43,056 nucleotides of DNA. Source: Minisyncoccia bacterium. Lineage in GTDB: Bacteria; Patescibacteriota; Minisyncoccia; SW-4-49-11. The translations under genes were made by a program, and so were the position numbers. The stretch is from contig JBIKVS010000009.1 in NCBI GenBank assembly GCA_044356725.1, forward strand, positions 1 through 43,056, written 5' to 3'. Shown in pieces: positions 14,789-41,670 of this stretch (positions are counted from its first letter, which is position 1; each line of letters starts with the position of its first letter). The notes beneath the pieces are model-generated. The model was not told the DNA's origin and did no database searches. It saw nothing but the letters and a program-made list of their open reading frames with translations.

Positions 14789-14837
14789 ATAGTTTATTAT
14801 AACATAGATTGAGTTATTTATAGATTTTTTGTATAAA

Positions 14838-15228
14838 AATTATGAATTGTTAATTTCTTAGAGTCGGTGCCCTCGCCGACATTGCTTGTCTGTAGGGGCG
14901 ACCTTTCAGTCGCCTGAAGTCCTCCTCCGTCACCTACGGTGCCACCTCCCCCAAGGGAGGATAATTTTGTCGAGTTTTCTGTCTCCCTTCCATCCCTACG
15001 GGAGGCAAGTGGAGGGAGTCCCCGTAAAAAGGCTTTAGCCTTTGGGAAAGGGGTCGGGAAAACGGGAGTTTTCCCGTGGAGGAAGGTTGGGAAACCGTGA
15101 GGTTTAACAGGAGCAAATCTTATTTGCGACGGGGGAGGGTGGATTGCTCTATGTCCTCCCTTGGGGGAGGTGCCCGAAGGGCGGAGGAGGACAGGAGTAA
15201 ATCCCATTTGCGACGGCGGAGAGTAGAC
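14838..15228. repeat. composite repeat cluster 2 (heptamer tract, GTAG-headed REP, modules with nested inserts)
   Basis: AATTATGAATTGTTAATTT 14838-14856; GTAGGGGCGACCTTTCAGTCGCCT 14892-14915; modules at 14919-14962, 14981-15143, 15153-15192; 14891-15143 is an inverted near-copy of 34751-35005. Confidence 0.9.
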
Positions 15229-15248
15229 AGTTATATTCATTCTCAATC

Positions 15249-15539
15249 CTAAGATTTTTTCTTACTAAACCATTTTTGGGTGTTAGGATTGCGATGTGGA
15301 CATCCAGGCCAACAGCAGGGAATTTTCTCTCCCAATTCTAATTCTTCCAACATTCTCGATATATGTTTAAGTCTTGTTTCTTCTCTTTTGACAATAGTCA
15401 CCCAACAAATCCATTCATTTCTTTGAATTGGAGTTAAATTATTCCATTTTTCTAATATTTTGTGATTATTTAGTAAAACCTCCTGCATATCTGAGGGAAT
15501 AGGATGCAATATGCCTGATAGAATTGTTTGATCTTGCAT
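15249..15539 (-). CDS. YdeI/OmpD-associated family protein
   Basis: IPSDMQEVL...WNNLTPIQRNEWICWVTIVKREETRLKHI...LELG pattern; C-terminal CCWPGCPHR. Confidence 0.85.
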   Translation of the reverse strand: MQDQTILSGILHPIPSDMQEVLLNNHKILEKWNNLTPIQRNEWICWVTIVKREETRLKHISRMLEELELGEKIPCCWPGCPHRNPNTQKWFSKKKS

Positions 15540-15602
15540 AGTAATTGATAATATGTATATAAATTATTATACAAAATATTAAGGTTTTTGTGAAATTGTA
15601 TT

Positions 15603-15947
15603 AATTATGAATTGTGAATTTCGTAGCGGAGCCGTCCCTACGGGAGGTAAACGTTTATCCCTCCATATCGTAGGGATACCTTTCAGTATCTTATGATCCC
15701 CCCCGCCTTTCAGGCTTCCCCCTCCGAAGGGGGGCAAAATAAGAAATGTCCTAATTTGGAGGTAGGTGACGGAGGGGAACAGAATTCAGAATTTATTTTT
15801 CCACCCCGTCCAGCGGAGCTGTCCACCCCCTCCTAAACTTAGAAGTATAGGAGGGACGAAAGCCCTCAATTTATCTCACGTAGGGAGAGAGGGGAATTTT
15901 TAGGGCAGTCCTCCTCCGCCCTACGGGCACCTCCCCCAAGGGAGGAC
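15603..15947. repeat. composite repeat cluster 3
   Basis: AATTATGAATTGTGAATTT 15603-15621; REP variant GTAGGGATACCTTTCAGTATCTT 15670-15692; modules at 15696-15735, about 15748-15780, 15800-15896, 15908-15947. Confidence 0.85.
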
Positions 15948-16008
15948 AATTTTTTGATATAAGAAAAAATCCCCGCTGCGAGGTGCATTGGGGGTGTGGG
16001 GGTTTAGG

Positions 16009-16569
16009 TCAGAGAATACGAGCTCCCCATTTTCTGTCTTGTTCTCTGAGGAGAGATGCATAGTCTGGTTCTGTTAACTTATATTTTCGTAACGCTCCCT
16101 CTTCGTTAGTATATATTATGTAGTCAGGGGCTTTGTTATTGATAGCTAAATGTTATTCTAGAACTAAATTGTTTTGTGGTTTTATTACTGCTGCAATGTA
16201 TAATGTCCAGCCTGAATGAGTTGTTGTTTTTTCCATCTGATATATTAATTCCCCCTCAAATCCATAAGGGTTGTCAACCTTTAATGTATGGCCTCGTTCT
16301 GCTTGTATTTTACCAATTAAAAGTATAGAGTTATCTACATGTCTTTGGGGTTCGACTATTCTTAAAATTTTAGAAGCACGATACTGCTCTAAACTAAAGC
16401 AATTTATATTGAATATGCCATTCTCTGATTTGGTAAGGATAACTTTTGTATCTATTGGAATGACAAACTCTTCATTTTCAACAAGCAATACAAGTCTATT
16501 GAATCCATTATCTTTTCTTATTTCAACTCCAGATTCCTCAAAAGTTTCTTGGGTTGTTCGGAGCTTCAT
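16009..16569 (-). pseudogene. hypothetical protein, probably interrupted by an in-frame TAA at 16153-16155
   Basis: The 138 aa ORF continues in frame after TAA for 47 codons (HLAINNKAPDY...RKWGARIL) to TGA 16009-16011, followed by a weak hairpin and T run. Confidence 0.55.
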
Positions 16570-16730
16570 TGATTTTTAAAATGAGCTTGAACTCTCTTTG
16601 TCAGGGAGTTCTGGCAAGGTTGAGTGTAGCGTATTGAAAAAGATGAGAAACATCATAGACATATTTGAAAATTTTTGGCAATTGTGCTATAATATTAGAT
16701 AGGGTATTGTTATATATTGCTATCTAAAAT

Positions 16731-18461
16731 ATGAAAGTTATTCAACAATTTGTAGAATATTTTGAGTCTCAAGGTCATATTCAGGTAGACTCTTCCTCTT
16801 TATTACCTAAAGGGGATACTTCGGTTTTGTTTACTACTGCGGGGATGCAGCAGTTTAAGTCTTATTATCTTGGAACTCCGTCTCCGTATGGGAATCGGGT
16901 TGTGAGTGTACAGAAGTGTCTTAGAGTTGATGATATTGATGAGGTTGGGGATGAGACTCATAATACTTTTTTTGAGATGCTTGGGAATTTTTCTTTTAAT
17001 TATCCTGAGGGTGAGGGGAGTTATTTTAAGGCTGAAGCAATTAGATTTGGGTATGAATTGATTGCTGAGCAGTTAGGTATGCAGATTGATTATGTGACTA
17101 TCTTTGCTGGTGATGAGAAAAGTCCCAAAGATACTGAGACTTTAGCTATTTGGCAGGATTTAGCTCGGGAAAAGGGTATTGAATTAAAGATTAGAGAACT
17201 TGGGCGAGAGGATAATTTTTGGGGTCCTACTGGGGCAGAGGGACCTTGTGGTCCTACTACAGAGATTTTTGTAAATGATGTTGAAGTCTGGAATATTGTT
17301 TTTAATCAATATTATTCCAAAATTGGCGGTGAATTAGAGATTTTACCTCAACAGGGGGTTGATACTGGTGGTGGTTTGGAGAGAATTATGACTCAATTAG
17401 AGGGGGTTAACTCAGTTTATGACACCAGTGTCTTTTCTCCAATTATGTCTGATTTGAGAGATAGCTTCCAAGGGCAAAAAGAGTCAGTCTATAGAGTTTT
17501 ACTTGACCATATTCGGGCCAGTACTTTTCTTCTGGCTGAGGGAGTGGTACCTTCTAATAAAGAACAAGGATATGTTTTGAGGAGATTACTTCGTAAAGTG
17601 ATGAGTTTGACTAATTCTTATGATAGATCTTTGGAATTGATTTTTGATACTGTGGGGTCAATTATTGATGTCTATAAAGATAGATATCCTGATCTGGAGA
17701 CTTCTCAAGATAGTGTAAAGACTTTAATTCAGGATGAATATGCTTTGTTTCAAGATGCTTTGTCTCGTGGTATGAAAATGGCAAATAAATTATTGAAGAA
17801 AAAACGAGTCCCGCATATGTCAGGAGAAGAGGCTTTTCTTCTAGCTTCTACTTATGGGCTTTCTCCAGAAGTTTTGAAATTGCAAGGTTTGTCTTTTGAT
17901 GAGCAAGACTTTGAAGATTATAAGTCTGAACATCAGGCTATCTCTAGAGCGGGAGCTACCAAAAAATTTGGTGGGCATGGGCTTATTTTGGATAATGGTG
18001 AATTAAAAGCTGCTAATGAAGAAGAATTAGCTATTGTGACTAGACTTCATAGTGCGACTCATTTATTAAATCAGGCTTTGCGGGAAGTTTTGGGTGAAAG
18101 TGTAGAACAAAGAGGTTCTGATATTACGGCGGAGCGAACTAGATTTGACTTTAGTTTTGACAGAAAGCTTACCTCAGATGAAATTAAAGCAGTAGAAGAT
18201 AAAGTTAATTCTTATATTAATCAAGCGGCTGAGGTTGTGATTACTAATATGCCACTAGAGGAGGCAAAACAATCTGGGGCTTTGTACTTGGCTAATCGTA
18301 ATTATCCAGAATTTGTGGATGTTTATGCTTTTGGGGATATCTCTAAAGAATTGTGTGGAGGTCCGCATATTAAGAATACAAAAGAGATAGGACAGTTCAA
18401 AATCAAAAAAGAGGAAGCGGTTGCTAGCGGAGTTCGTCGTATTCGTGGTATAATAATTTAA
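16731..18461 (+). CDS. alaS: alanine--tRNA ligase, short form lacking the C-Ala domain
   Basis: LFTTAGMQQFK, QKCLR, HNTFFEMLGNFSF, GPCGP, VDTGGGLER, DHIR, HSATHLL, ELCGGPH, GVRRI; ends just after the editing domain. Confidence 0.97.
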   Translation: MKVIQQFVEYFESQGHIQVDSSSLLPKGDTSVLFTTAGMQQFKSYYLGTPSPYGNRVVSVQKCLRVDDIDEVGDETHNTFFEMLGNFSFNYPEGEGSYFKAEAIRFGYELIAEQLGMQIDYVTIFAGDEKSPKDTETLAIWQDLAREKGIELKIRELGREDNFWGPTGAEGPCGPTTEIFVNDVEVWNIVFNQYYSKIGGELEILPQQGVDTGGGLERIMTQLEGVNSVYDTSVFSPIMSDLRDSFQGQKESVYRVLLDHIRASTFLLAEGVVPSNKEQGYVLRRLLRKVMSLTNSYDRSLELIFDTVGSIIDVYKDRYPDLETSQDSVKTLIQDEYALFQDALSRGMKMANKLLKKKRVPHMSGEEAFLLASTYGLSPEVLKLQGLSFDEQDFEDYKSEHQAISRAGATKKFGGHGLILDNGELKAANEEELAIVTRLHSATHLLNQALREVLGESVEQRGSDITAERTRFDFSFDRKLTSDEIKAVEDKVNSYINQAAEVVITNMPLEEAKQSGALYLANRNYPEFVDVYAFGDISKELCGGPHIKNTKEIGQFKIKKEEAVASGVRRIRGIII

Positions 18462-24433: not shown

Positions 24434-24454
24434 TGTAGTGTGATTTTTTGAAGT

Positions 24455-24757
24455 GTAGGGGCGACCTTTCAGTCGCCTGTAATTGTATTAAAATTCCCCT
24501 CTCTGCCTACGGTAGATAAATTGAGGGGTGGACGCTTCGCTGGACGGGGTGGATGTATTTTGCAATTTGAGCTAATGTCTCCCTTTTTAACTGCCGTAGG
24601 TAGTTGGAGGGAGTACCCGAAGGGGGAGGGAGGATAAACTTTGGAATACTAAAATAAACACTTGTTTGTATCAATATTACACTCTATCCACCACCGGCAC
24701 TTCGTGCCACCTCCTCCAAAGGAGGACAAATACAGGGGACTGAAAGGTCTCCCCTAA
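24455..24757. repeat. composite repeat cluster 4 bracketed by an inverted pair of GTAG-type REPs
   Basis: GTAGGGGCGACCTTTCAGTCGCCT 24455-24478 and inverted variant 24734-24757 enclose modules at 24494-24554, 24577-24634, 24686-24727. Confidence 0.9.
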
Positions 24758-24862
24758 GAAACTCACAACTAATAATTTGTCTATAATCATCTCATCCAGT
24801 ACAGCTACTAGTAAATACACATAAAATATGATATAATTATATTAATAATATAAGAATAAATT

Positions 24863-26628: not shown

Positions 26629-26662
26629 TAATATATGAATATTCAGGAACAAGTCAAATTAC

Positions 26663-27136
26663 TTGTTGAGAATAACTCTACATAAGAGAAAATATATTAT
26701 TGGAGAAATTAGTGAATATCAATTTCAAGATATGCATTATAATAAAGAGACAGATATTGCTACTTATGATAATTCTCCAAAATTAGATATCAAAGTAGGT
26801 GATACCGTTTATGCAAAATTAGATCAATATGTGGGACAGACAGCTTCAATTATGCATATCACAAATGATTTTAAATCTATAAATAATCATTCATATTATG
26901 AAATCAATGATATGGAGAAAAAACCATTTATTAAAGGTACAATAGTAGAAATCAAGTCAGCTACATTAGAACAAGGTGAGCCAACTAAATATATTGTTGA
27001 ATATGGGATAGAAAAAATAAATTTTGAATTTAAGTCTTTAGCTGGAGCTGTATCAAAAGTAGAATTAAACTCAAATGGGGAAGTTAAATTATTAGAAGTT
27101 TATCAGGACAATAAAGTTATTTATAGAGCTAATTAG
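26663..27136 (+). CDS. protein resembling the C-terminal part of GDYXXLXY-family proteins; 5' end uncertain, possibly frameshifted
   Basis: KVGDTVYAKL, FIKGTI, VEYGIE, KVELNSNGEVKL resemble that family; N-terminal TM and GDY motif absent; TTG start, out-of-frame ATG at 26635. Confidence 0.5.
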   Translation: MLRITLHKRKYIIGEISEYQFQDMHYNKETDIATYDNSPKLDIKVGDTVYAKLDQYVGQTASIMHITNDFKSINNHSYYEINDMEKKPFIKGTIVEIKSATLEQGEPTKYIVEYGIEKINFEFKSLAGAVSKVELNSNGEVKLLEVYQDNKVIYRAN

Positions 27137-27147
27137 AGATTATATAT

Positions 27148-27471
27148 TTATATTTCAAGTTCAATTTTCCAATCCATTGGAATGAATGTAAAGTTTATTA
27201 TATGAGGAAAGTTATTTTCTTTTTTCCAAATAGATAACTTTAACCTTATTTCACTCACTAATTCGTCAATGTCTGTAATTTTATGAGAACTCATCTGTAT
27301 AAATATCTCTATTGGTGCAGCCTTTACTTTAATTTGTGAATTATTTGCATATACAAATACATCTTTAATTTTAGTAACATCTGAAACTATTTTTTGTATA
27401 GCTTTAGATAAATTTAAAGTCTCACTCTTACCAACTTTATCTTTATCATAATCTAGTCTTATAACTGGCAT
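27148..27471 (-). CDS. small tautomerase/MIF-superfamily-like protein
   Basis: Probable start is ATG 27471, giving MPVIRLDY (Pro-1) and a beta-alpha-beta duplication pattern. Confidence 0.5.
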   Translation of the reverse strand: MPVIRLDYDKDKVGKSETLNLSKAIQKIVSDVTKIKDVFVYANNSQIKVKAAPIEIFIQMSSHKITDIDELVSEIRLKLSIWKKENNFPHIINFTFIPMDWKIELEI

Positions 27472-27615
27472 ATTATTCAATAATTTTAATATTATAAGTA
27501 TATCATAATTCTTACATATAAACAATGCATTGTACTAGATGATATGATAGTAGACAAGTTGCAAAATAAAAAGTCAAGGTATTAAAGAAGTAGCAAGAGT
27601 ATTAGATAATTAATT

Positions 27616-27752
27616 GTCTTCCTTTGGAGGAGGTGGCACTAAGAAGTGCCGGTGGTGGATAGAGTGTAATATTAATACAAACAAGTGTTTATTTTAGTAT
27701 TTTAAGTAGTATATCCACCCTCCCCCTTCGGGTACTCCCTCCTAAGGGAGAC
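27616..27752. repeat. repeat cluster 5: REPIN-like doublet, inverted copy of 24577-24727
   Basis: Two inverted modules plus AT-rich spacer; spacer core AATACTAAAATAAACACTTGTTTGTAT(C/T)AATATTACACTCTA is shared with cluster 4. Confidence 0.9.
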
Positions 27753-27830
27753 AAAATAAATTTCAACCTTAAAATATTGTCTACGATGTTTCTCATCTTT
27801 TTCAGAACAATGTATAAGTATTATAAATAA

Positions 27831-34709: not shown

Positions 34710-35005
34710 AATTATGAATTATGAATTATAAGTTATGAAGTGTTAATTTTGTCCTCCCTCCCCCTTCGCAAATGTGATTTGCTCCTTGGAAACCCACGGT
34801 TTCCAACACTCGGTCTTTGACCTCGTTGCCTCCCTCCACGGGAAAACTACCGTTTTCCCGACCCCTTTCCCAAAGGTTAAAACCTTTTTTACGGGTACTC
34901 CCTCCAAAGGGAGACAAAAAGTACAACCAAACTGTCCTCCTTTGGAGGAGGTGGCACCGTAGGTGACGGAGGAGGACTTAAGGCGACTGAAAGGTCGCCC
35001 CTACA
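34710..35005. repeat. composite repeat cluster 6 (heptamer tract plus inverted near-copy of cluster 2)
   Basis: ATTATGAATTATGAATTATAAGTTATGAAGTGTTAATTT from about 34710; modules 34751-34915 (with nested insert) and 34934-34977; REP 34981-35004. Confidence 0.9.
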
Positions 35006-39492: not shown

Positions 39493-41670
39493 ATGTCAAA
39501 AGCTTTAATTATTGTAGAGTCGCCGACTAAGGCGAAGACAATTTCCAAATTCTTAGGTAAGGATTATACGGTGAAGTCTTCGATGGGTCATATTCGTGAT
39601 TTACCGAAGTCTAAAATCGGGGTGAATCCAGATGAGAACTTTGAAATTACTTATGAAATCCCAGCTAAAGCTAAAAAGACTGTAACAGAGCTCAAAAAAT
39701 TAGCTAAAAGCAGTGATGAAGTTATTCTGGCAACTGATGAAGATAGAGAAGGGGAGGCTATTTCTTGGCATTTAGCTAATATTTTGAAATTAAAACCAGC
39801 CACCGCTAAGAGAATGGTATTCCATGAGATTACCGAGTCAGCGATTAAAGAGGCTTTAGTTAATCCAAGATATATAGATATAAATTTAGTAGATGCTCAG
39901 CAGGCTAGAAGAGCCCTAGACCGTCTAGTAGGGTATAAATTATCTCCATTTTTATGGAAAAAGGTACAGCGGGGGCTTTCTGCTGGTAGAGTACAGTCAG
40001 TGGCTTTGAGATTAATTGTAGATAGAGAAAGAGAAATTGAAGCTTTCCAGTCGCAGGAATATTGGACAATTCAAGGTATATTTAATTCTAATAATGATAA
40101 GACTTTAGATATTAGCTCTACTTTAACTCATATAGATAATAAAAGATTAGATAAATTTAGCTTTACTAATGAACTTGAGACTAATAATTTAGTAGATAAA
40201 CTCAAGACTTTATCTTATACAATCAAGTCTATAGAGAATAAAACCGCTTCACGAAATTCATATCCACCTTTTATTACCTCATCTCTGCAACAAGATGCAT
40301 CTAGGAGATTATATTTCTCAGCTAAGCAGACTATGATGATTGCCCAGCAATTATATGAAGGTATTGCTATTGGAAAACGTGGTCAGACTGGACTTATTAC
40401 TTATATGAGAACAGATTCGACTAATTTATCAGCTCAGGCTTTGAATGCGGCTAAAAGTCAAATTATCAAGCAATTTGGGGATAAATATTATCAGAGCAGG
40501 CAATTCAAAACTAAATCCAAGAATGCTCAAGAAGCCCATGAGGCAATTCGTCCGACCGATCCGAGTATAACTCCGGAGGAAGTTCAGCCATATCTGGATG
40601 ATAAACAATATAAATTATATGCTCTGATTTGGAGTAGATTTATGGCGAGCCAAATGAAACCAGCTACTTTTGAGACTATGAATGTGGCTATACAAGACAT
40701 AGAGGAGAGTAAATATACTTTTAGCACTAGTGGTAAGAGATTGGTTTTCGATGGTTTTATGCGAGTTTATGATTTGAAATCTGAGGATGTGATTTTGCCG
40801 AATATAGCTAAGGGAGAGAATTTAAATACCAAAAAGATTGAGGGGGAACAGCATTTTACTCAGCCACCGGCTAGATATAGTGAAAGTAGTTTAGTTAAGG
40901 CTCTTGAGACTAATGCTATTGGAAGGCCATCTACGTATGCCTCTATTATCTCTACTATTCAGACTAGAGGATATGTAGTCAAGAATGATGATAGAAGATT
41001 TGCACCGACAGATATTGGTAAAGTAGTGACAGATATGTTGGTGGAGCATTTCCCGCAAATTGTAGATATTGAATTTACAGCTAAAGTAGAGGAGCAGTTC
41101 GATGAGATTTCTCTAGGCAAAGATACTTATCAGAATACAATGGCAGAGTTCTATAATCCGTTTGAAAAGACTCTCAAAGAAAAAGACAAAACTGTAGATA
41201 GACATCGTGAAATTATTACAGACAGAGTTTGTCCAGAATGTGGAGGACAATTAGAGTTAAAGCGAAGTAAATTTGGTAAATTTATCGCTTGTACCAATTA
41301 TCCAGAGTGTAAATATACCGATAAAAGTGACGAGGAGAAGAAATTACAAGCAGACTTTGGTGGTGAGAAATGCCCAAATTGTGAAGATGGCGTGATGGAG
41401 GTTAAATCAGGTAGATTCGGACCATTTTTAGGCTGCTCTAATTATCCAACCTGTAAGACAATCAAAAAAATTGAGAATAAAACAGGAGATAAATGCCCAG
41501 AGTGTCAAATAGGAGATATGGTAATGAAAAAAGGTAAAAGAGGTCCATTTAAAGCCTGTAACAGGTATCCAGAGTGTAAGCATATAGAAGGAGTCAAGAA
41601 AAAATCTAACTTCAGCTCTAAATCAAAATCTAAGGTTAAATCTAAAGCTAAACCAAAGAAGCCATCCTAG
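39493..41670 (+). CDS. topA: DNA topoisomerase I with three zinc ribbons and Lys/Ser-rich tail
   Basis: IVESPTKAKTI, ATDEDREGE, SAGRVQS, ITYMRTDS, AHEAIRPT, IGRPSTYA, three CPxC...C..YP.C repeats. Confidence 0.98.
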   Translation: MSKALIIVESPTKAKTISKFLGKDYTVKSSMGHIRDLPKSKIGVNPDENFEITYEIPAKAKKTVTELKKLAKSSDEVILATDEDREGEAISWHLANILKLKPATAKRMVFHEITESAIKEALVNPRYIDINLVDAQQARRALDRLVGYKLSPFLWKKVQRGLSAGRVQSVALRLIVDREREIEAFQSQEYWTIQGIFNSNNDKTLDISSTLTHIDNKRLDKFSFTNELETNNLVDKLKTLSYTIKSIENKTASRNSYPPFITSSLQQDASRRLYFSAKQTMMIAQQLYEGIAIGKRGQTGLITYMRTDSTNLSAQALNAAKSQIIKQFGDKYYQSRQFKTKSKNAQEAHEAIRPTDPSITPEEVQPYLDDKQYKLYALIWSRFMASQMKPATFETMNVAIQDIEESKYTFSTSGKRLVFDGFMRVYDLKSEDVILPNIAKGENLNTKKIEGEQHFTQPPARYSESSLVKALETNAIGRPSTYASIISTIQTRGYVVKNDDRRFAPTDIGKVVTDMLVEHFPQIVDIEFTAKVEEQFDEISLGKDTYQNTMAEFYNPFEKTLKEKDKTVDRHREIITDRVCPECGGQLELKRSKFGKFIACTNYPECKYTDKSDEEKKLQADFGGEKCPNCEDGVMEVKSGRFGPFLGCSNYPTCKTIKKIENKTGDKCPECQIGDMVMKKGKRGPFKACNRYPECKHIEGVKKKSNFSSKSKSKVKSKAKPKKPS

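What the first reader, a model, noticed from the sequence alone, without database searches (positions are those of the whole stretch)
14981..15143. Matryoshka nesting: a 104-125 bp multi-hairpin element inserted at a CG in the loop of a host module
Seen: the empty module reads GGAGGGAGTACCCG|AAGGGGGAGGGAGGA (24606-24634, inverted at 27713-27742). At 15025-15128 and, inverted, at 34767-34891, the same point holds an insert TAAAAA...ATTTGCG with CG on both sides, compatible with a 2 bp duplication. The insert is a string of hairpins: AAAGG(C/T)TTTA(G/A)CCTTT with a compensatory change, GGGAAAAC-loop-GTTTTCCC, GGAAACC-loop-GGTTT(CC), GCAAAT-loop-ATTTGC. The 34.8 kb copy carries one further roughly 21 bp hairpin (CGGTCTTTGACCTCG region, about 34808-34829), a third level. 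Empty and filled alleles in one window are direct evidence of insertion or precise excision. Inference: a hierarchy of tiny elements targeting each other's loops, possibly an undescribed system.
Basis: partly seen in the sequence, partly recalled or inferred. Interest (0 to 1): 0.85.

Follow-up and report, generated by a model that had tools for sequence, protein, structure and literature searches.

The report
Mobile structured element nested in hairpins
The insert is real: it is one copy of a folded, about 100-base element found across many tiny-genome (CPR) bacteria, usually just after tRNA genes, which in this genome has multiplied and sits in the loops of other small repeat hairpins.

Summary
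Genome-wide, the host hairpin GGAGGGAGTACCC-GNA-GGGGGAGGG(A/T)GGA occurs 24 times empty and about 15 times filled with the same 104-127 nt multi-hairpin insert, with the same left junction.

The insert, which I call E, is not private to this host:
- It also sits in a second hairpin module and after tRNA genes.
- Its core 19-mer lies in more than 113 contigs of many CPR/Patescibacteria lineages.
- A covariance model finds it in 48 of 151 genomes of the class: usually 1-6 copies, 29 here.
- Away from this genus it usually follows a tRNA gene, between a short inverted copy and a direct copy of the tRNA 3' part.
- Compensatory changes, a junction-loop pair (CG 22, UA 17) and a triple-like covariation point to a folded single strand, probably RNA. 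Rfam has no match.

The host hairpins lie in 310-400 bp inverted-repeat-ended units that a congener lacks at orthologous sites. Filled units are not one clade (AU p 5e-9).

Two details fail. The "2 bp CG duplication" is not supported. The "third-level" hairpin is an optional arm of E. No enzyme was found and the insertion mechanism is inferred.

The parts
15027..15130 (+). Insert, short form (first hairpin plus E), measured against a TA-type empty module. The E core starts at 15044 and E ends with GCGAC at 15126-15130.
   Evidence: Covariance-model hit at 15044-15109. Fold.
15011..15026 (+). Host A left arm GGAGGGAGTCCCCG plus loop TA.
15131..15143 (+). Host A right arm GGGGGAGGGTGGA.
14980..15010 (+). 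Upstream hairpin GTCTCCCTT..GGAGGGAG, whose own loop holds a further small hairpin (CCATCCCTACGGGAGGCAAG). This small hairpin is present in 5 of the 18 aligned filled copies.
34765..34889 (-). Insert, long form (125 nt), with the optional arm at 34805-34828.
   Evidence: Partial covariance-model hit at 34826-34871.
34752..34764 (-). Host A right arm of the 34.8 kb copy.
34890..34905 (-). Host A loop TA and left arm of the 34.8 kb copy.
24606..24634 (+). Empty host A module (loop AA).
27714..27742 (-). Empty host A module (loop AA) inside a complete carrier unit.
15152..15193 (+). Empty host B module TGTCCTCCCTTGGGGGAGGTGCCCGAAGGGCGGAGGAGGACA.
15194..15228 (+). A 5'-truncated E tail (GGAGTAAATCCCATTTGCGAC) followed by a second copy of the host B right arm (GGCGGAGAGTAGAC).
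   Evidence: (D12).
14811..15258 (.). Repeat array holding the 15 kb copy. A congener (G004) has 10 nt at the orthologous place.
24437..24793 (.). Repeat array holding the 24.6 kb empty module. G004 has 13 nt there.
   Evidence: s2.
27778..27804 (-). Terminal inverted-repeat-like end TGAAAAAGATGAGAAACATCGTAGACA of the carrier unit. Its mate in the window is at 16635-16661.
   Evidence: (I17).

Best explanation
The insert is a copy of a small, non-coding, non-autonomous mobile element, here called E. Its working form is a folded single strand, most likely RNA. E is 85-130 nt long: a purine-rich 5' stretch, a GNRA-capped hairpin, a purine junction, an optional arm, a second hairpin whose loop and stem contact the junction, a variable last hairpin, and the end TTGCGAC.

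E always ends up as the apical, multi-branched 'loop' of a hairpin. In most CPR genomes that hairpin is made from the neighbouring gene. E lies downstream of a tRNA gene on the same strand. It is preceded by a 7-21 nt inverted copy, and followed by a direct copy, of the tRNA 3' part starting in the T-loop. The direct copy sometimes runs through the terminator.

In this genus E has in addition entered the GNA loops of G+C-rich hairpin modules (hosts A and B). These modules are building blocks of 310-400 bp inverted-repeat-ended, MITE-like units. E has risen to about 29 copies here. The result is three nested layers: carrier unit, hairpin module, E.

Shown here: the anatomy, the copy numbers, the several contexts, the folded-strand covariation, the gain or loss of carriers between species, and the non-monophyly of filled carriers.

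Inferred: that E itself inserts, and how. My preferred mechanism, at roughly one chance in three, is polar copy-in from an RNA or single-stranded intermediate primed at the target. This would resemble target-primed synthesis with a variable second cut and a short snap-back. The enzyme acts in trans and is unknown.
For: Contexts and junctions:
- Host A: 24 empty, 15 filled. Host B: 39 empty, about 8 filled. Two chimeras exist, with one arm from each host.
- The left junction always follows the GNA loop.

Independence from the carrier:
- 14 carrier units (5 filled, 9 empty) were put in a tree. The filled label needs 4 changes. One starred branch (98/96) joins a filled unit with two empty ones. 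The AU test rejects one clade (p 4.8e-9).

Carrier mobility:
- 22 of 41 G000 host A sites have colinear anchors in G004.
- At 16 of those 22, G004 has no module and the interval is 300-400 bp shorter.
- Clean cases are s15 and s18.

Spread:
- The 19-mer lies in 113 or more contigs of many CPR lineages.
- The covariance model hits 48 of 151 genomes and 39 of 123 genera of the class. Copy numbers are 1-6 typically, 8-12 in congeners and 29 here.

Layout at tRNA genes:
- 64 of 113 loci have a same-strand tRNA ending within 200 nt upstream.
- In 50 of 58 loci the tRNA 3' part is repeated after E.
- G000 itself has such copies after tRNA-Asp, tRNA-Arg and two tRNA-Ser genes.
- An unrelated cargo, F, has the same layout. 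One copy has a perfect 57-nt duplication from the T-loop to the end of the terminator stem.

Folded strand:
- Four pairs of hairpin 3 show compensatory changes.
- The pair 37-56 reads CG 22, UA 17, AU 1, UG 1, other 1.
- No shuffle out of 500 reaches the observed score.
- Position 42 follows pair 47-62 in 42 of 42 sequences.
- One-sided changes in hairpin 2 are G-U on the E strand (11).

Polarity:
- 6 of 9 solo E tails are the last 21 nt of E flanked by two copies of the host B right arm.
Against: - No orthologous site was found empty in one genome and filled in another.
- The contigs of four public runs gave only repeat-confounded joints.
- Gene conversion or recombination among dispersed copies could produce the non-monophyly, the chimeric arms and the free assortment without any new insertion.
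- G000 has no RVT_1 and no Y1_Tnp match. It has a single tyrosine recombinase, which all five genomes tested share.
- The Y1 transposase and the reverse transcriptase of a congener are not flanked by E or host modules.
- No protein family other than LepA is enriched beside E. LepA is a target, not a partner.
- Half of hairpin 2 was fixed by the search word, so its G-U bias is partly an effect of how the copies were collected.
- The 43 sequences behind the covariation counts were chosen by a pattern, and they are related to each other.
- Transcription was not shown.
Confidence: 0.6

Rival explanations
1. There is no ongoing insertion. E entered host A once and host B once, long ago. Since then filled and empty modules have spread only as passengers of the carrier units. 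Gene conversion and ectopic recombination between dispersed repeats have shuffled them, as in a BIME-like mosaic.
For: - Chimeric copies exist with a host A arm on one side and a host B arm on the other.
- The same intergenic place holds different arrays in G000 and G004.
- Whole arrays, not E alone, differ between species.
- No enzyme was found.
Against: - E lies in many unrelated contexts across CPR with locally matching flanks.
- E tails are flanked by duplicated host arms.
- There are 29 copies here against 6-12 in congeners.
- The left junction is the same in four different hairpin sequences.
Confidence: 0.25
2. E is first of all a cellular non-coding RNA gene: a tRNA-linked small RNA processed out of tRNA transcripts, with a regulatory or ribozyme-like role. 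The array copies in this genus are secondary, selfish or decaying duplicates.
For: - The core sequence is strongly conserved over distant CPR lineages.
- There is tertiary covariation.
- E is always on the tRNA strand: all 64 upstream tRNAs found within 130-200 nt as nearest neighbour are on the same strand.
- Five loci have E ending exactly at the first base of a tRNA.
- A terminator follows the direct copy.
Against: - E is found in only 48 of 151 genomes of the class, with a variable copy number.
- E also lies in the 5' end of lepA (10 loci) and in ribosomal-protein gene ends, with duplicated target sequence.
- An unrelated cargo, F, uses the same layout.
- There is no Rfam family.
Confidence: 0.12
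3. One ancestral long repeat decayed by deletion. On this view the empty modules are deletion products of filled ones.
For: The empty module still has two similar purine runs (GGAGGGAG .. GGAGGGAGGA) around CCCGNAGG, which could be read as a footprint.
Against: - 24 empty host A and 39 empty host B modules would each need the same precise deletion.
- Empty loops read NA, while filled ones read AC, AT or AA.
- E stands in other contexts.
- G004 has 16 empty modules but only 6 E copies.
Confidence: 0.03

Closest known systems
REP sequences and bacterial interspersed mosaic elements (BIMEs) of enterobacteria, with their RAYT transposases (recalled, no call)
   Same: - Short G+C-rich palindromic modules lie in intergenic DNA.
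- They are combined in many orders and orientations.
- There are dozens of copies.
   Different: - No Y1 (RAYT) gene was found in G000.
- The modules here carry a 100-nt structured cargo inside their loops.
- The cargo is shared with distant phyla.
Correia (NEMIS) elements of Neisseria and BOX elements of pneumococci (recalled)
   Same: - They are 100-400 bp non-coding units with inverted ends.
- They have a modular make-up.
- They show presence/absence polymorphism between strains.
   Different: - For the carrier unit only an imperfect inverted repeat and one clean 6-bp flanking repeat were seen.
- The nesting of a foreign structured element is not a known feature of those families.
G+C-rich clusters and double-hairpin elements of fungal and algal organelle genomes (recalled)
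   Same: - G+C-rich hairpins lie in an A+T-rich genome.
- They are inserted into one another.
   Different: - This is a free bacterial genome (99% complete, 897 kb).
- The element has tertiary covariation and a link to tRNA genes.
Genomic islands and phages that integrate into the T-loop region of tRNA genes by tyrosine recombinases (recalled: Williams 2002, not read here)
   Same: - The direct repeat of the tRNA 3' part starts in the T-loop.
- The tRNA gene stays intact.
   Different: - The 'island' is only 150-250 bp and has no gene.
- It carries an extra inverted copy of the target.
- Many different tRNAs, and also protein genes, are used.
SINE-like non-autonomous retroposons copied in by target-primed reverse transcription (recalled)
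   Same: - The target duplications vary in length (about 20 to 57 nt).
- There are 5'-truncated copies anchored at the 3' end.
- The element is a structured RNA-like unit linked to tRNA.
   Different: - No reverse transcriptase was found in G000.
- No such system is known in bacteria.
- The inverted target copy is not a SINE feature.

Membership tests
MITE (for the 310-400 bp carrier unit) | Short, non-coding, many copies | tested here: met
   The units are 310-400 bp. There are 25 hits of the end motif with at most 4 mismatches.
MITE (for the 310-400 bp carrier unit) | Terminal inverted repeats | tested here: met
   The ends TGAAAAAGATGAGAAACATCGTAGACA and TGTCTACGATCATCTCATC form an imperfect inverted repeat (I17, 19, 38).
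MITE (for the 310-400 bp carrier unit) | Target-site duplication of fixed length | tested here: inconclusive
   AATATT lies on both sides at s15. The other seven compared sites are ambiguous.
MITE (for the 310-400 bp carrier unit) | Presence/absence at orthologous sites | tested here: met
   At 16 of 22 anchored sites G004 lacks the unit.
MITE (for the 310-400 bp carrier unit) | A parent transposon with the same ends | not tested
   Only RVT_1, Phage_integrase and Y1_Tnp were searched. DDE families were not searched.
REP/BIME with RAYT | A Y1 (RAYT) transposase gene flanked by the repeats | tested here: not met
   G000 has no Y1_Tnp match. The Y1 gene of G005 is flanked by different hairpins.
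IS200/IS605-derived miniature elements | Subterminal hairpins matching a resident IS200/IS605, and no target duplication | tested here: not met
   E loci show long duplications.
tRNA-integrating element with tyrosine recombinase | Direct repeat of the tRNA 3' part from the T-loop | tested here: met
   Seen in 50 of 58 loci and at G000 loci.
tRNA-integrating element with tyrosine recombinase | An integrase gene within the repeat-bounded segment | tested here: not met
   The segment is 150-250 bp without an ORF. No neighbouring family is enriched.
Retroposon copied in by target-primed synthesis | Variable-length target duplications and 5'-truncated, 3'-anchored copies | tested here: met
   Duplications run from about 20 to 57 nt. 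6 of 9 solo tails are flanked by duplicated arms.
Retroposon copied in by target-primed synthesis | A reverse transcriptase available in the cell | tested here: not met
   RVT_1 was found in 1 of 5 genomes tested, and not in G000.
Any Rfam 15 family | A covariance-model match to E or F | tested here: not met
   Searches (gathering threshold; E-value up to 0.1 and 1) found only tRNAs, one group I intron and noise.
TIGR-Tas guide arrays | Tandem 36-nt dual-spacer units next to a Nop-domain Tas gene | tested here: not met
   The arrays here are not uniform tandem units. The features of TIGR come from passages read in PMC12045711. A Tas gene was not searched for.

The most novel reading that the evidence does not exclude
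E, and the unrelated cargo F, define an undescribed class of tiny mobile elements of CPR bacteria. A folded RNA (or single strand) is copied into hairpin loops and tRNA T-loop regions by a polar, target-primed process. That process leaves a direct duplication of variable length plus a short inverted copy of the target, so the element builds its own closing stem from whatever it lands in. Nesting in other repeats follows directly from this loop-seeking habit.
Probability: 0.35. Interest if true: 0.88.

Novelty: new variant of a known kind. Interest (0 to 1): 0.72.

Why it matters
CPR/Patescibacteria have very small genomes and are thought to be poor in mobile DNA. Here one 0.9 Mb genome carries dozens of nested repeat modules. 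One of them is a conserved, structured, apparently RNA-like element shared by roughly a third of the sampled genomes of the class and by several other CPR lineages, yet it is absent from Rfam.

If E is a functional RNA, it is a new widespread RNA class with a testable tertiary fold.

If E is a mobile element, its layout does not fit any described bacterial transposition chemistry. That layout is a direct plus an inverted copy of the target, tRNA T-loops and hairpin loops as landing sites, and 3'-anchored truncated copies. It would therefore point to an unknown enzyme.

Either way E is a handy marker for strain-level dynamics in uncultured lake bacteria.

Tried and rejected
Tools that gave nothing:
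- Reads: the single read-laying run used contigs of three DNA runs and one RNA-library run. It gave high summed depth on the arrays and many joints between repeat copies, but no clean empty or filled joint at the four window sites. It is no evidence either way on excision or on transcription.
- Viral contigs: the 19-mer had 0 matches.
- Rfam: no family for E or F.
- Enzymes: G000 has no RVT_1 or Y1_Tnp and one shared tyrosine recombinase. The Y1 and RT genes of congeners are not flanked by E, host modules or carrier ends. DDE, IS110 and TnpB families were not searched.

Orthologous empty/filled pair, not found:
- At the 15 kb and 24.6 kb sites the congener lacks the whole array.
- At the 34.8 kb site it holds a different array.
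- The only filled unit of G004 with both arms lies in a variable 1 kb region unlike G000.
- My first automatic screen was misled by paralogous hits. I used it only for the 34.8 kb lead.

Ideas dropped:
- Snap-back at the tRNA terminator as the source of the inverted copy. In L084 and other loci the inverted copy skips the acceptor part.
- A primer-binding site for the tRNA 3' end. The inverted copy does not include the complement of CCA.
- A pseudoknot of three pairs between the junction and the hairpin 3 loop. Only the pair 37-56 holds; 38-55 and 39-54 are paired in 19 and 33 of 42 sequences.
- TIGR arrays (passages only).

Literature:
- Five full-text searches found no description of such repeats or of E in CPR, Saccharibacteria or Parcubacteria.
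- Supplements are closed and may hold motif lists that I could not see.

Rows dropped:
- 7 of 113 loci before alignment A1. L017, L081, L086 and L111 hold the 19-mer without the hairpin. L037, L042 and L054 are truncated. A further 5 were lost at contig ends.
- A2 holds 43 simple-form cores picked by a pattern.
- The tree uses 14 of 35 host A sites, namely those with a recognisable right flank.

Full report
**Setting**

The window is contig C4 of a 897,185-base, 20-contig genome that is 33% G+C and rated 99% complete. Its genes are ordinary housekeeping genes: photolyase, AlaRS, DprA, a class II aaRS, a glycosyltransferase and others. Contigs elsewhere that carry the same composite repeat bear record titles such as 'uncultured Candidatus Saccharibacteria bacterium'. 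The genomes of its class are 0.5-1.3 Mb. The organism is therefore a CPR/Patescibacteria bacterium. Its DNA is found in lake-water metagenomes.

**The observation**

Genome-wide, the host module GGAGGGAGTACCCG-NA-GGGGGAGGG(A/T)GGA occurs as follows:
- 24 times empty, with loop TA, AA or CA.
- 10 times with a 105-127 nt insert, when both arms are required at 2 or fewer mismatches.
- 15 times filled on a looser count.

An alignment of 18 filled copies shows the same string of hairpins with sharp ends. The 15 kb copy folds as a four-way junction closed by the host arms.

**The insert is an entity of its own**

Its core, which I call E, occurs 28-32 times in the genome, depending on the method. 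It occupies several contexts:
- Host A.
- A second module, host B (GGAGGTG-short hairpin-GGAGGAGGAC). Host B is empty 39 times, with covarying internal stems, and carries E about 8 times.
- Two chimeras with one arm of each host.
- About 9 copies in neither host.

In all hairpin hosts the left junction lies directly after a GNA loop: CCCGTA|, CACCGTA|, CCCGCA|, GCACGAA|. The right junction is E's own conserved end GCGAC followed by the 3' arm. In host B that arm is shortened by 1-3 nt.

Three features assort almost freely:
- The host type.
- The type of the first small hairpin (AAAGGCTTTAGCCTTT or TTAGACTGAAAGTCT).
- The short or long form of E.

The extra hairpin of the long form is inside E in 12 of 12 occurrences. 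Distant CPR copies have a homologous arm at the same place. It is therefore an optional arm, not a third nested element.

The CG on both sides is a coincidence. One CG is the last stem base and first loop base of the host. The other is part of E's conserved terminus.

**The hosts are parts of larger units**

Many host A modules lie in a 310-400 bp unit. It begins with TGAAAAAGATGAGAAACATCGTAGACA and ends with the imperfect inverted copy TGTCTACGATCATCTCATC, next to promoter-like TTGAC..TATAAT sequences.

I fetched a congener, G004, almost whole (824 kb). It is 81-97% identical to G000 in flanking genes. The comparison gave:
- 22 of 41 G000 host A sites have colinear anchors in G004.
- At 16 of these, G004 has no module and an interval 300-400 bp shorter.
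- At 6 it has an empty module.
- At none does it have a filled one.
- Pairwise alignments show whole units, filled or empty, present in G000 and absent in G004. The cleanest is s15, where AATATT lies on both sides.

In the window, the arrays at 14811-15258 and 24437-24793 correspond to 10 and 13 nt in G004. At the 34.8 kb site G004 has a different array.

G004 has 16 empty host A modules but only 6 E copies.

**Independence of E and carrier**

I built a maximum-likelihood tree of the carrier flanks with E removed. It has 14 units, 5 filled and 9 empty. The other 21 of 35 host A sites lacked a recognisable right flank.
- The filled label needs 4 changes.
- One well-supported branch joins a filled unit with two empty ones.
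- Holding the filled units together costs 48 log-likelihood units (AU p 4.8e-9).

E has therefore been gained or lost repeatedly relative to its carriers. The cause is either insertion or excision, or conversion between copies.

**E outside this genus**

- The 19-mer GGGAAAGGGGTCGGGAAAA is in at least 113 contigs of the one-genome-per-species collection; the scan stopped at its limit. Their titles name Saccharibacteria, Parcubacteria/Paceibacteria, Jorgensen-, Morani-, Berkel-, Kaiser-, Colwell-, Sungii- and Niyogibacteria, and a few others.
- Four of these contigs hold the word without the following hairpin and look like chance hits.
- A covariance model of the 64-nt core finds E in 48 of 151 sampled genomes of the class, in 39 of 123 genera. 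Copy numbers are typically 1-6, 8-12 in congeners and 29 in G000.
- No viral contig holds the 19-mer.

**The usual layout**

- In 64 of 113 loci a tRNA gene on the same strand ends within 200 nt upstream. In 13 a tRNA starts just downstream. Seventeen or more tRNA identities are involved.
- In 50 of 58 loci examined, the sequence right after E is a direct copy of the tRNA 3' part, beginning in the T-loop.
- In L022, L024, L057, L084 and L099 the copy runs 15 nt or more beyond the tRNA.
- The 7-21 nt right before E are the inverted complement of the start of that copy (..ATTCGAAC|GGGAAAGG).
- In many loci one of the two strands reads GAGA where the T-loop has TCGA. In a helix between the two copies this would give tandem G-A mismatches.
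- The other targets carry the same duplications: the 5' end of lepA (10 loci; the only neighbouring protein family that is enriched), rpmG, and the end of another small ribosomal-protein gene.

G000 itself has such copies:
- After tRNA-Asp.
- After tRNA-Arg, where the unit of copy, spacer, inverted copy and E is tandemly doubled.
- After two tRNA-Ser genes.

**A second cargo**

A different sequence of about 95 nt, which I call F, lies after tRNA-Glu, tRNA-Leu and tRNA-Gly of G000 in the same layout. The tRNA-Glu copy has a perfect 57-nt duplication from the T-loop to the end of the terminator stem. F shares only its end TTG(C/T)GAC with E. F is narrower in spread: 9 of 151 genomes with a 17-mer at up to 1 mismatch. 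It has no Rfam match.

**A folded single strand**

On 43 simple-form cores (42 distinct sequences):
- Hairpin 3 has four pairs with compensatory changes: UA 28/CG 13; UA 35/CG 3/GC 3/AU 1; GC 26/AU 16; AU 37/GC 5.
- Junction position 37 pairs with loop position 56 (CG 22, UA 17, AU 1, UG 1, other 1).
- 94% of cells are paired, against 22-61% when the partners are slid.
- None of 500 shuffles reaches the covariation score.
- Position 42 is G when pair 47-62 is G-C (26 sequences) and A when it is A-U (16). Position 41 follows pair 48-61 in 40 of 42. This behaviour resembles a base triple.
- The loops on the E strand are GNRA-like (GGGA, GGAA, GCAA, GTGA).
- One-sided changes in hairpin 2 are G-U on that strand (11).

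Caveats:
- Half of hairpin 2 was fixed by the search word.
- The 43 sequences were chosen by a pattern. The pattern did not constrain the covarying positions.
- The sequences are related to each other.

A tertiary contact of this kind is what one expects of a functional RNA. A single-stranded DNA form is not excluded.

**Mechanism**

What any mechanism must explain:
- A left boundary fixed in a loop (the T-loop, or just after a GNA loop).
- A direct duplication of variable length to the right.
- A short inverted copy of the start of that duplication placed before the cargo.
- Two unrelated cargos with a common 3' end.
- 3'-anchored truncated copies. 6 of 9 solo E tails are the last 21 nt of E between two copies of the host B right arm, one of them at window 15194-15228.

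A polar copy-in primed at the target would give all of these. Its features would be a variable second cut and a brief snap-back across the compactly folded cargo. This is inference. G000 has no RVT_1 or Y1_Tnp match and only the tyrosine recombinase that all five genomes tested share. The Y1 and RT genes of congeners are unrelated to these repeats.

Integration by a tyrosine recombinase explains the direct repeat. It does not explain the inverted copy, the range of targets, or the absence of a gene.

Conversion among copies remains a serious rival for the pattern inside this genome.

**Comparison and novelty**

- The layered mosaic resembles REP/BIME, Correia or BOX elements and organellar G+C clusters.
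- The carrier passes most MITE tests. A fixed-length target duplication was inconclusive, and a parent element was not searched for.
- E itself fits no family I could test. Five full-text searches found no description. Supplements were closed.
- I file the finding as a new variant of a known kind (nested miniature repeats).
- E and F may be a new kind of element or a new RNA class. I give this about one chance in three.

Noticed in passing
G000 C9:69400-69600, C10:36925-37100, C19:15380-15530 (loci L193-L195): A second, unrelated cargo of about 95 nt ('F') lies after tRNA-Glu, tRNA-Leu and tRNA-Gly. It has the same layout as E: direct copy, inverted copy, cargo. One copy has a perfect 57-nt duplication. 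In congeners F also occurs in tandem pairs about 165 nt apart.
   Followed up: partly
window 15596-16661 and 26631-27821: These two blocks are bounded by repeat arrays. They carry small ORFs: 16153-16569 (-) with no Pfam family, and 26663-27136 and 27148-27525, which were not scanned. They correspond to 241 and 51 nt in the congener G004. The arrays therefore mark insertion or deletion hot spots that also move genes.
   Followed up: partly
window 16635-16661 and the right ends of carrier units (for example G000 C10 about 60300): The carrier end motif lies directly upstream of promoter-like TTGA(C/A)-17-TATAAT sequences. One example is in front of alaS at 16731. The units may bring or displace promoters.
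   Followed up: no
loci L019, L039, L082, L090, L093, L115 and four more: E lies about 47 nt upstream of lepA, in the opposite orientation. A decayed second copy of the first 30-40 nt of lepA follows E. This makes lepA a recurrent non-tRNA landing site.
   Followed up: partly
G000, 39 host B modules (for example window 15152-15193, 14905-14962): The internal hairpin of host B varies with compensatory changes (GCACC-GTA-GGTGAC, GCAC-GAA-GTGCC, CCC-GAA-GGGC, GCC-TAT-GGCC), while its GGAGG/CCTCC parts stay constant.
   Followed up: no
L018:1675-1932: There is a sub-threshold group I intron match (42 bits against a gathering score of 50) just upstream of an E copy, probably inside a tRNA gene of a Parcubacteria MAG.
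   Followed up: no
L199 (G005:C20:19614-19973): An intact IS200-like Y1 transposase gene in a congener is flanked by CCCCGCC-TTTTAA-GGCGGGG hairpins. These are unrelated to the repeats studied here.
   Followed up: yes
window 41267-41584: There are three diverged 51-nt repeats inside the 725-aa ORF 39493-41670. I took this ORF for topoisomerase I with zinc-finger repeats, but it was not scanned against any library.
   Followed up: no
loci L021, L080 (titles: Bdellovibrionales MAGs) and L049 (title: Bathyarchaeia MAG): These contigs carry complete E copies beside tRNA genes, although they are binned outside CPR. This could be mis-binning or transfer.
   Followed up: no
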